Part shown: one piece after another, positions 316 through 477 of the stretch
Layout of the letters: each line of letters starts with the position of its first letter
Position numbering within the stretch: the stretch's first letter is position 1
DNA from: a virus
UHGV virus genome: UHGV-0118722
Direction: 5' to 3' (one strand)
DNA: 10,622 nt
The notes under the pieces: model-generated
Seen by the model: only the letters and a program-made list of their open reading frames with translations
Databases searched by the model: none
What the model was told of the DNA's origin: nothing
Position numbers and translations under genes: made by a program

Positions 316-334
316 CGTGATCAAAAAGATCACG
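316..334. repeat. Perfect inverted repeat CGTGATC-AAAAA-GATCACG containing two GATC (Dam) sites
   Basis: Read directly: 7-bp arms at 316-322 and 328-334 around an A5 spacer, with GATC at 319-322 and 328-331. It lies 24 nt upstream of the ATG at 358. Confidence 0.6.
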
Positions 335-344
335 GCCTATACCT

Positions 345-354
345 GGGGGGGGGG
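345..354. repeat. Homopolymeric G10 tract directly upstream of a start codon
   Basis: Ten consecutive G at 345-354, followed by ATT and then ATG at 358. The tract occupies the position where a Shine-Dalgarno would sit. Confidence 0.7.
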
Positions 355-357
355 ATT

Positions 358-477
358 ATGAAATTGCTTAACGTCATTGAAGCTGTACTTAACTGCCTGT
401 ATCTGGCGGCCGGGCTGTGGGACTGGCTGGAGAAGCATTTACCTGTTTTTAAGGCGTTCGCGCTGATTTTAGTGTGA
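358..477 (+). CDS. Hypothetical small hydrophobic protein (39 aa)
   Basis: ATG at 358 to TGA at 475-477 encodes MKLLNVIEAVLNCLYLAAGLWDWLEKHLPVFKAFALILV, hydrophobic and single-helix-like. It is below the 60-aa ORF-track cutoff and was found by manual translation. The G-run immediately upstream could serve as the ribosome-binding site. Confidence 0.3.
   Translation: MKLLNVIEAVLNCLYLAAGLWDWLEKHLPVFKAFALILV

What the first reader, a model, noticed from the sequence alone, without database searches (positions are those of the whole stretch)
316..477. G10 tract and a palindrome with two GATC sites immediately upstream of a 39-aa hydrophobic ORF
A 10-G homopolymer sits exactly where the ribosome-binding site of a small hydrophobic ORF would be, and 11 bp further upstream is a perfect palindrome carrying two Dam sites. 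Homopolymers of this length are prone to slipped-strand mispairing, and paired GATC sites in a palindrome are the kind of element used in Dam-dependent epigenetic switches. Together they could make expression of the small protein variable. The ORF is short and could also be non-coding.
Basis: seen in the sequence. Interest (0 to 1): 0.4.

Follow-up and report, generated by a model that had tools for sequence, protein, structure and literature searches.

The report
Poly-G ribosome site of small gene
The G10 run is the stretched, mutation-prone ribosome-binding site of a real, very widespread but unannotated 39-codon plasmid gene that always sits next to the plasmid's dimer-resolution (cer) site, and the "palindrome" is the tip of a conserved RNA hairpin, not a Dam-methylation switch.

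Summary
The features exist as described: G10 at 345-354, inverted repeat 316-334 with two GATC, and a 39-codon ORF at 358-477.

The segment 1-779 is a ColE1-type plasmid fragment (mbeA/mbeD ends, ORF, cer-like Xer site), joined through an IS1-like element to a P1-like phage-plasmid.

The ORF is a real gene. It is intact at 39 codons in all 95 related loci and covered in all 416 PLSDB hits. dN/dS is 0.09-0.40, against 0.8-1.5 in the control frames. It always ends 137-138 nt before the XerC site. It matches no known family.

The G run sits at the Shine-Dalgarno position. Sister clades carry AGGAG, GGAGG or AAGGAGG there. Among 39 near-identical loci the run is 5-10 G, and it differs even between loci with identical flanks, so it is a mutational hotspot. 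No allele lacks an SD, one plasmid lineage is fixed at G7, and a thermodynamic model saturates at G8. This points to tuning or drift, not an on/off switch.

The palindrome is the apex of a 12-pair stem-loop (309-340). It is kept by compensatory changes, and G·U pairs favour the + strand RNA. Both GATCs occur in only 19 of 96 loci, so the Dam-switch idea is not supported.

The protein's function is unknown.

The parts
1..253 (+). 3' ends of the mobilization genes. The mbeA frame stops at 253 and the overlapping mbeD frame stops at 158.
   Evidence: Relatives are annotated MbeD / MbeA relaxase. ORFs. An MbeA C-terminal match ends 95-108 nt before the small ORF in nearly all loci.
296..303 (+). 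Pyrimidine-rich, anti-SD-like segment CUUCUCCC, predicted to pair with the G run and so sequester the SD.
   Evidence: It pairs with the G run in the MFE structures of the window and of all eight clade representatives. About 8-14 expected base pairs in most of 35 sequences, range 3-14. There is no clade-specific covariation: native pairing equals chimeric pairing. This is prediction only.
309..340 (+). Conserved leader stem-loop: outer stem 309-314/335-340, bulge U315, inner stem 316-322/328-334, loop A5 at 323-327.
   Evidence: RNAalifold consensus. 12 pairs are 96.4% paired in 35 distinct sequences. Two pairs show compensatory changes (GC/CG/GU and UA/CG/UG). Slid controls give 22-46% paired. 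G·U pairs fit only the + strand.
319..331 (.). Two GATC (Dam) sites, 319-322 and 328-331, formed by the self-complementary stem.
   Evidence: Both sites are present in only 19 of 96 related loci.
345..354 (+). G10 run: the Shine-Dalgarno element of the small gene, expanded into a homopolymer.
   Evidence: Sister clades have AGGAGCGGGAA-ATG, CGGAGGGATT-ATG, AGGGGGAATT-ATG and AAGGAGGATGTG-ATG at the same place. The run is 5-10 G in 39 near-identical loci.
358..477 (+). ORF39: a 39-codon gene for one long amphipathic alpha-helix, with conserved motif L-N-C-L...E-L-W-D-W-L. Family unnamed, function unknown.
   Evidence: Intact in 95/95 loci. pN/pS is 0.32 against 0.77 and 1.52 in the other frames; pairwise dN/dS is 0.09-0.40. 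Homologues. 416 PLSDB plasmids. AlphaFold2 gives a helix at residues 2-38, pLDDT 86. No hit in Pfam, NCBIfam, PHROGs or the PDB.
317..361 (+). Possible 14-codon upstream ORF from GTG317 inside the hairpin, ending at a UGA that overlaps the ORF39 AUG (AUGA). The tract length sets its frame. Speculative.
   Evidence: With G7AATT it fuses in frame and PGAP calls a 52-aa protein. Frame classes. The frame relation is not conserved across clades.
480..642 (+). cer-like Xer multimer-resolution site: accessory sequences with an ArgR-box-like palindrome at 486-507, then the core XerC site 615-625 (GGTGCGGGCAA), centre 626-631 (CAGATG) and XerD site 632-642 (TTATGGTAAAT).
   Evidence: Alignment to ColE1 cer. 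The core lies 137-138 nt after the ORF39 stop in 93 loci, and variant cores sit at the same place in every other locus with enough downstream sequence.
780..1537 (-). IS1-like element joining the ColE1-type segment to P1-like phage-plasmid DNA (context only).
   Evidence: InsA/InsB-like ORFs. Annotated IS1 family transposase in relatives. Terminal repeats read. P1-like matches start at about 1541.

Best explanation
The region is the translation-initiation leader of a genuine, conserved 39-codon gene (ORF39). ORF39 is a fixed left-hand neighbour of cer-type Xer sites in small ColE1-like plasmids.

The G10 run is the gene's Shine-Dalgarno sequence. In this lineage a GGAGG/GGGGG-type SD has become a homopolymer. 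It now changes length by replication slippage, and by A<->G changes at its 3' edge.

The 'palindrome' is the apical part of a 12-pair RNA stem-loop in the leader, maintained by selection on pairing. Its two GATC sites are a by-product of the self-complementary stem sequence in this lineage.

Inferred steps:
- The stem-loop nucleates a leader fold in which an upstream CUUCUCCC segment pairs with the G-rich SD. This keeps ORF39 translation low or conditional.
- Tract-length changes at most tune initiation quantitatively, saturating at about G8. They do not switch the gene on and off.

The biochemical role of the 39-aa helical protein is unknown. Its invariant linkage to cer suggests a plasmid-maintenance role.
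For: Shown:
- ORF39 is coding. It has 39 codons in 95/95 loci. pN/pS is 0.32 in frame against 0.77 and 1.52 out of frame, and dN/dS is 0.09-0.40. Distant 39-aa homologues keep the LNCL..ELWDWL motif. All 416 PLSDB tblastn hits cover at least 80% of the query.
- An SD-like element lies 2-6 nt from the ATG in nearly all clades examined: AGGAG, GGAGG, AAGGAGG or G5-10. One clade (L081) has only a weak one.
- The tract is a hotspot. Eleven tract variants occur among 39 near-identical loci, and loci with identical 299-nt flanks carry different tracts. The window differs from pRHB31-C15_3 by one mismatch in 551 nt, which is the A->G that turns G9A into G10.
- The hairpin is conserved with compensatory changes and + strand G·U pairs. 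The apical loop is even inverted between clades while the stem is kept.
- The GATC sites are not conserved.
- The cer core lies 137-138 nt downstream in every locus with enough sequence. This includes plasmids without a relaxase.

Modelled:
- The SD pairs with the upstream pyrimidine segment in all clades.
- The SD:anti-SD duplex energy goes from -5.5 kcal/mol at G4 to -13.1 at G8 and above.
Against: - There is no expression data.
- The transcription start is unknown, and no sigma-70-like promoter was found on either strand in 1-830.
- The SD-sequestering helix has no covariation support. Native and chimeric leader/SD combinations pair equally (9.5 against 9.5 bp), and for G10 a shuffled partner pairs as well.
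- Only two pairs of the hairpin covary, and through few independent events.
- Loci were fetched by protein similarity, which favours intact ORFs.
- Some singleton tract lengths, including the window's G10, could be sequencing errors.
- A quantitative or stochastic effect of tract length on the protein level is not excluded.
Confidence: 0.68

Rival explanations
1. Contingency locus: slippage of the G tract at the RBS produces heritable, reversible high/low (phase-variable) expression of ORF39 within a population.
For: The tract length is polymorphic among near-identical plasmids and among identical flank haplotypes. A 10-G run is slippage-prone (established knowledge of simple-sequence repeats). 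The model shows the SD duplex strengthening from G4 to G8. The tract length also changes the frame relation to a possible upstream ORF.
Against: No allele without an SD was observed; all have at least 5 G. The 3' edge-to-AUG spacing is unchanged by tract length. Eight of eight loci of one haplotype, including isolates from Laos, China, Cuba and the UK collections, are G7. The model plateaus at G8 and above, so G9-G11 are predicted to be equivalent. Sister clades do well with ordinary non-repetitive SDs.
Confidence: 0.17
2. Dam-methylation epigenetic switch: the two GATC sites in the palindrome are differentially methylated and control expression of the ORF.
For: Two GATC sites lie 9 bp apart in the window and its closest relatives.
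Against: Both sites are present in only 19 of 96 related loci, and 23 have none. Changes such as GATC->GATT, GGTC, GATG/CATC keep pairing, not GATC. No promoter-like element was found. No binding site for a methylation-sensitive regulator was identified. GATC pairs this close occur elsewhere in the window.
Confidence: 0.03
3. The inverted repeat works as double-stranded DNA: an operator for a dimeric DNA-binding protein, rather than as an RNA hairpin.
For: The half-sites GTGAT/ATCAC are nearly invariant, and symmetric changes in both arms would also suit a dimer.
Against: G·U positions (U·G in 30 of 35 at one pair, plus GU/UG variants) would be A·C mismatches of symmetry. The spacer length and sequence vary (A5, GAAAAG, GCAAAG, GAAA, and an inverted loop). 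The stem extends to 12 pairs with a bulge, which is typical of RNA. No regulator gene travels with the module.
Confidence: 0.08
4. hok/mok-like or leader-peptide coupling: a short upstream ORF starting at GTG317 (ATG in other clades) must be translated to open the leader and allow ORF39 translation. The tract length sets whether it ends at AUGA, fuses, or overshoots.
For: With G10ATT/G9AATT the uORF stops at a UGA overlapping AUG358. With G7AATT it fuses, giving the 52-aa PGAP call. Every clade has GTG or GTGATG in the 5' arm. The predicted SD is sequestered.
Against: The start lies inside a stable stem and has no good SD. The frame relation is not conserved among clades or among tract alleles; frames 0, 1 and 2 are all found. 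No antisense RNA or promoter was detected.
Confidence: 0.07
5. The ORF is non-coding, and its conservation and constant length reflect cer accessory-sequence constraints (PepA/ArgR phasing).
For: There is a fixed 137-138 nt distance to the XerC site. The 3' part of the ORF probably overlaps the distal accessory region (own knowledge of cer architecture, about 180-200 bp).
Against: The substitution pattern is codon-periodic: variable sites by codon position are 22, 13 and 28, and dN/dS is well below 1 only in this frame. Replacements are conservative, and the motif is retained at about 45% identity. The SD is conserved in nearly all clades. ColE1 cer works without this sequence (own knowledge).
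Confidence: 0.04

Closest known systems
Simple-sequence-repeat (homopolymer) contingency loci, e.g. poly-G/poly-C tracts in promoters or coding regions of Neisseria, Haemophilus, Campylobacter and Bordetella surface genes (own knowledge)
   Same: A long G homopolymer sits in an expression signal. Its length is polymorphic among otherwise identical sequences.
   Different: The tract is the SD itself, so length changes neither shift the reading frame nor alter the -35/-10 spacing. No OFF allele was seen. The host elements are small multicopy enterobacterial plasmids. No within-population switching has been shown.
Dam-dependent epigenetic switches (pap with Lrp, agn43 with OxyR, opvAB, gtr) (own knowledge)
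   Same: Two closely spaced GATC sites lie upstream of a gene.
   Different: The GATC sites are not conserved. No regulator site or promoter was found. The sites lie in a transcribed RNA stem, not in an upstream regulatory region.
Type I toxin leaders (hok/mok/sok; tisB/istR-1) (own knowledge)
   Same: A plasmid-borne ORF of under 60 aa for a single helix. It has a structured leader with a predicted sequestered SD and a possible overlapping upstream ORF.
   Different: No antisense RNA or promoter was detected. There is no sequence similarity to Hok or TisB families. Hydrophobicity is borderline here (Kyte-Doolittle 1.4-1.6) and low (0.8-1.0) in distant homologues, so a transmembrane toxin is doubtful.
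ColE1 cer / Rcd multimer-resolution and checkpoint module (PMC4393325, PMC2831885)
   Same: It lies immediately beside, and in the same orientation as, a cer-like site with XerC/XerD core and accessory-sequence homology.
   Different: ORF39 and its leader lie outside the region homologous to ColE1 cer. ColE1 itself has no ORF39. No role in resolution is known.
SD-sequestering mRNA leaders (e.g. ROSE / fourU RNA thermometers, translational operators) (own knowledge)
   Same: A pyrimidine-rich upstream strand is predicted to pair with the SD, next to a conserved hairpin.
   Different: There is no match to any Rfam family, no covariation for the sequestering helix, and no known signal.

Membership tests
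Homopolymeric-tract phase-variable (contingency) locus | Homopolymer of about 8 nt or more within a promoter, RBS or coding region | tested here: met
   G10 at 345-354, 3 nt before the ATG
Homopolymeric-tract phase-variable (contingency) locus | Tract length polymorphic among otherwise near-identical sequences | tested here: met
   Runs of 5-10 G in 39 loci, with different tracts on identical 299-nt flanks. However, one haplotype is 8/8 G7.
Homopolymeric-tract phase-variable (contingency) locus | Length change switches expression between distinct states (ON/OFF or high/low) | not testable with these tools
   Only a thermodynamic model was possible: the duplex strengthens from G4 to G8 and then plateaus. 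No SD-less allele was observed.
Homopolymeric-tract phase-variable (contingency) locus | Reversible length heterogeneity within one culture | not testable with these tools
   This needs read-level data.
Dam-methylation epigenetic switch (pap/agn43 type) | GATC sites conserved in the regulatory region of homologous loci | tested here: not met
   Both GATC in 19 of 96 loci, one in 54, none in 23
Dam-methylation epigenetic switch (pap/agn43 type) | GATC sites overlap binding sites of a methylation-sensitive regulator (Lrp, OxyR) at a promoter | tested here: inconclusive
   No sigma-70-like promoter on either strand in 1-830. By eye the sequence does not fit the OxyR consensus (own knowledge). No dedicated scan was available.
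Type I toxin-antitoxin (hok/sok, tisB/istR) | Small protein with a transmembrane-grade hydrophobic helix | tested here: inconclusive
   Single helix at residues 2-38. The best 19-aa Kyte-Doolittle window is 1.4-1.6 in this clade and 0.8-1.0 in distant homologues.
Type I toxin-antitoxin (hok/sok, tisB/istR) | Antisense or trans-acting antitoxin RNA gene overlapping or adjacent | tested here: not met
   No promoter-like or terminator-like site on the minus strand over the locus. No Rfam hit. The scans are crude, so this is a weak negative.
Type I toxin-antitoxin (hok/sok, tisB/istR) | Sequence membership of a known toxin family | tested here: not met
   No Pfam or NCBIfam hit at E<=1. hhalign against TisB gives probability 0.8%.
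cer-type Xer multimer-resolution site (context of the finding) | XerC half-site, 6-8 bp centre and XerD half-site, with about 180 bp of accessory sequences homologous to cer | tested here: met
   GGTGCGGGCAA-CAGATG-TTATGGTAAAT at 615-642, plus alignment to ColE1 cer. The finding itself (316-477) lies outside the cer-homologous part.
Intrinsic (Rho-independent) terminator | G+C-rich stem followed by a U tract | tested here: not met
   The scan did not call the hairpin at 309-340. It is followed by ACCUGGGG on the + strand and UUAGCGGG on the - strand.

The most novel reading that the evidence does not exclude
ORF39, with its structured leader, is an undescribed plasmid-maintenance component functionally coupled to cer. 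It could be, for example, a small helical effector or a hok/mok-like peptide acting with the dimer-resolution or Rcd checkpoint. The hypermutable poly-G SD would then give each plasmid lineage, or each cell, a different translation set-point. ORF39 is present in more than 400 finished plasmids and thousands of assemblies, so this would add a new, overlooked gene to the classic ColE1 stability module.
Probability: 0.12. Interest if true: 0.6.

Novelty: new member of a known kind. Interest (0 to 1): 0.3.

Why it matters
As a switch, it matters little. The evidence points to an ordinary ribosome-binding site that has become a slippery homopolymer, and to a leader hairpin whose Dam sites are incidental.

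The useful by-product is a conserved, almost never annotated 39-codon gene with its own conserved leader. It is locked 137-138 nt upstream of cer-type Xer sites in hundreds of small enterobacterial plasmids. These plasmids include vehicles of resistance and restriction-modification cargo.

ColE1-type stability (cer, Rcd, XerCD/ArgR/PepA) has been studied for decades, mostly on ColE1 itself, which lacks this gene. A small protein tied to cer in most relatives is a cheap, directly testable lead.

The variable tract also explains inconsistent annotation of this gene: 39, 40 or 52 aa calls, or none.

Tried and rejected
- Family searches for the 39-aa and 52-aa forms found nothing in Pfam or NCBIfam and only sub-threshold matches in PHROGs and the PDB. 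A profile search of 1.84 billion representatives found only the same small family.
- TisB resemblance, recalled from memory: hhalign probability 0.8%, rejected.
- Rfam at gathering threshold and at E<=5: nothing relevant.
- Promoter and terminator scan of 1-830: no promoter on either strand, and only one unrelated minus-strand terminator-like site at 222-207. By eye, the conserved (C/G)TGACA at 267-272 has no acceptable -10 at 16-19 nt in any clade.
- Covariation test for the SD-sequestering helix with chimeric leaders: no clade-specific signal.
- ColE1 itself: no ORF39 by alignment or by tblastn at E<=10. ORF39 is therefore not ColE1 mbeE. mbeE is mentioned in PMC5864857 and PMC5935869, but I could not map it.
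- IMG/VR viral contigs: no relatives.
- Literature searches by topic and by peptide strings: no description of this ORF.
- The 39-aa query was too short for the search for homologous proteins, so the 52-aa form was used instead.

Full report
OBSERVATION

- G10 occupies 345-354, followed by ATT and then the ATG at 358.
- The ORF 358-477 encodes MKLLNVIEAVLNCLYLAAGLWDWLEKHLPVFKAFALILV.
- The inverted repeat CGTGATC-AAAAA-GATCACG occupies 316-334, with GATC at 319-322 and 328-331.
- It is an interrupted inverted repeat, not a strict palindrome.

How far this exceeds chance:
- The G run is the only homopolymer of 9 or more bases in the window, with about 0.1 G9 matches expected per shuffle.
- A 7-bp hairpin repeat is not rare here: 7 found against 4.5 +/- 2.6 simulated.
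- A close GATC pair is not rare either.

CONTEXT

Window 1-779 is a fragment of a small ColE1-type mobilizable plasmid.
- It holds the 3' ends of mbeA (stop at 253) and mbeD (stop at 158), the small ORF, and a cer-like Xer site.
- The cer-like site is homologous to ColE1 cer from about 480 onward.
- Its core is GGTGCGGGCAA-CAGATG-TTATGGTAAAT at 615-642.
- 699 PLSDB plasmids match the 150-700 stretch. The best is the 5.1-kb pRHB31-C15_3, with one mismatch in 551 nt.

An IS1-like element (about 780-1537) joins this fragment to P1-like phage-plasmid genes from about 1540.

THE ORF IS A REAL GENE

I fetched 96 loci from genome and metagenome contigs, plus PLSDB and RefSeq records.
- All 95 usable loci keep an intact ORF of exactly 39 codons, in 34 distinct nucleotide sequences.
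- Variable sites by codon position number 22, 13 and 28.
- Pooled pN/pS is 0.32 in frame, against 0.77 and 1.52 in the two control frames.
- Pairwise dN/dS to the window is 0.09-0.40.
- A profile search of 1.84 billion representatives found only this small family. Its distant 39-aa members (for example MRFLKTLELVLQCLSQLAEIWDWLQTHELIFDVFSLFLA) keep the motif L-[NQ]-C-L...[ED]-[LI]-W-[DE]-W-L.
- tblastn finds the ORF in 416 PLSDB plasmids, all with at least 80% coverage. These are mostly 3-10-kb mobilizable plasmids of Enterobacter, Klebsiella, Escherichia, Salmonella and Citrobacter. The ORF is almost always unannotated or called 'hypothetical'.
- The exact window protein is on more than 1000 contigs.
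- There is no Pfam, NCBIfam, PHROG or PDB match.
- AlphaFold2 predicts one continuous helix, residues 2-38, with pLDDT 86.
- Hydrophobicity is borderline for a transmembrane helix in this clade and low in distant homologues.

Caveat: the loci were gathered by protein similarity, which favours intact copies.

LINKAGE TO cer

- The XerC half-site starts 137-138 nt after the ORF stop in 93 loci. Variant cores sit at the same place in every other locus with enough downstream sequence.
- This holds in plasmids without an adjacent relaxase gene (L100, L104-L107).
- ColE1 itself lacks the ORF.
- Downstream of the core the plasmids diverge into R-M systems, IS1 and other cargo.
- ORF39 is therefore the last backbone gene on the XerC side.

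THE G RUN

In every clade the ATG is preceded by a purine-rich element.
- Examples are AGGAGCGGGAA-ATG, CGGAGGGATT-ATG, AGGGGGAATT-ATG, GGGGGGCATT-ATG, AAGGAGGATGTG-ATG (L100) and AAGGGGGGAGAT-ATG (L105).
- One clade (L081) has only a weak one.
- The G run is thus the SD, turned into a homopolymer in this lineage.

Tract variants among 39 loci whose ORF is within 2 nt of the window's:

| Tract | Loci |
|---|---|
| G7AATT | 16 |
| G9AATT | 6 |
| G6AATT | 4 |
| G7ATT | 3 |
| G8AAATT | 2 |
| G6ATT | 2 |
| G8AATT | 2 |
| G6TAATT | 1 |
| GTG5AATT | 1 |
| G9ATT | 1 |
| G10ATT (the window) | 1 |

- Loci with identical 299-nt flanks carry different tracts. The window's own haplotype has G9AATT three times, G9ATT once and G10ATT once. 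By comparison, there are 28 segregating sites in those 299 nt across the first 29 of these loci.
- The tract is therefore a genuine mutational hotspot, changing by indels and by A<->G changes at its 3' edge.

Several points argue against a programmed switch:
- No allele has fewer than 5 G.
- The distance from the 3' end of the run to the AUG stays at 3-5 nt.
- The ORF frame is unaffected.
- The 8 loci of one haplotype, including isolates from Laos, China and Cuba, are all G7.
- A simple ViennaRNA model gives an SD:anti-SD duplex energy of -5.5 kcal/mol at G4, falling to -13.1 at G8 and then flat. The unfolding cost shows no trend.

I therefore read the tract as an SD that drifts, or at most tunes translation.

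THE PALINDROME

RNAalifold on 35 distinct leaders extends it to a stem-loop at 309-340: AUAGGU-(U)-CGUGAUC-AAAAA-GAUCACG-GCCUAU.
- On 12 named pairs, 96.4% of cells pair, against 22-46% when the partners are slid.
- Two pairs show compensatory changes: GC/CG/GU and UA/CG/UG.
- The frequent U·G and G·U pairs would be A·C mismatches on the other strand. The + strand RNA, in the sense of the ORF, is therefore favoured.
- Between two clades the apical loop is inverted (GGAAAC against GTTTCC) while the stem is kept.
- The GATC motif is not what is conserved. Both sites occur in 19 of 96 loci, one in 54 and none in 23.
- There is no promoter-like site on either strand, no terminator signature and no Rfam family.
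- The Dam-switch reading is therefore not supported.

PREDICTED LEADER FOLD (INFERENCE)

- In the MFE structures of all eight clade representatives, the pyrimidine-rich segment just upstream (CUUCUCCC, 296-303 here) pairs with the SD region and encloses the conserved hairpin.
- The partition function gives about 8-14 such pairs in most sequences, range 3-14.
- Native pairing exceeds composition-preserving shuffles in most clades.
- Leader/SD chimeras between clades pair just as well (9.5 against 9.5 bp). For G10, a shuffled partner does as well.
- The helix is thus plausible but not supported by covariation.

A SIDE OBSERVATION

A short ORF from GTG317, inside the stem, ends at a UGA overlapping AUG358 in the G10ATT and G9AATT alleles.
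- It fuses in frame in G7AATT, which is why PGAP calls a 52-aa protein there.
- It stops 10 nt downstream in other alleles.
- All three frame classes occur, and the relation is not conserved across clades.
- I rank a hok/mok-like coupling model low.

COMPARISON AND VERDICT

- The tract resembles simple-sequence contingency loci in being a polymorphic homopolymer in an expression signal. The defining switch behaviour is untested and is disfavoured by the allele spectrum.
- It fails the key test for a Dam switch.
- It resembles type I toxin leaders only loosely. There is no antisense RNA, no family membership, TisB similarity is rejected, and hydrophobicity is doubtful.
- What is new is modest: a widespread, unannotated small gene with a conserved structured leader, tied to cer-type sites. 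I found no description of it.
- Interest is 0.3.

Noticed in passing
window 1-779 / 780-1537 / 1540-10622: The window is a cointegrate. A ColE1-type small-plasmid segment is joined by an IS1-like element to a P1-like phage-plasmid (darA/ddrA-like 995-aa gene, cin-type recombinase, tail fibre, holins). The same IS1-bearing 5.1-kb plasmid exists free (CP057261, NZ_CP010227).
   Followed up: partly
window 358-477 and 615-642; L003-L125: ORF39 always ends 137-138 nt before the XerC half-site of a cer-like core. The XerC side is conserved. The XerD half-site (TTATGGTAAAT, TTATGTTAAAT, TTATGTTCAAT) and everything beyond it vary, as expected if cargo is exchanged by Xer recombination at the core.
   Followed up: partly
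L039 vs L069 (leader hairpin apex; equivalent to window 322-328): The apical six bases of the conserved hairpin are reverse-complemented between clades (GGAAAC against GTTTCC) with the stem unchanged. This is a palindrome-mediated inversion.
   Followed up: no
window 317-361: A 14-codon upstream ORF (VIKKITAYTWGGGL*) from GTG317 ends at a UGA overlapping the ORF39 AUG (AUGA). The G-tract length decides whether it overlaps, fuses (the 52-aa PGAP call WP_001584438.1 in G7AATT plasmids) or overshoots.
   Followed up: partly
window 301-311 (CCCGCTAAATA): This 11-nt block is invariant in 34 of 35 distinct leaders, and CGCTAAATA persists in distant homologues (L100, L105). Part of it is the base of the stem, but why it is so strictly conserved is unexplained. 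It does not fit a sigma-70 -10 element.
   Followed up: partly
window 486-507: An 8-bp-arm palindrome GCCATGCA-TCTGGT-TGCATGGC lies at the position of the ColE1 cer ArgR box. It starts 9 nt after the ORF39 stop, so the 3' part of ORF39 probably overlaps the distal accessory (PepA) region.
   Followed up: no
L004, L006, L016 (Streptomyces), L003 (Acinetobacter), L005 (Collinsella MAG), L012 (Negativicoccus MAG): Near-identical enterobacterial ColE1-type plasmid sequence appears in assemblies labelled as unrelated taxa. This is most likely contamination or mis-binning of small plasmids.
   Followed up: no
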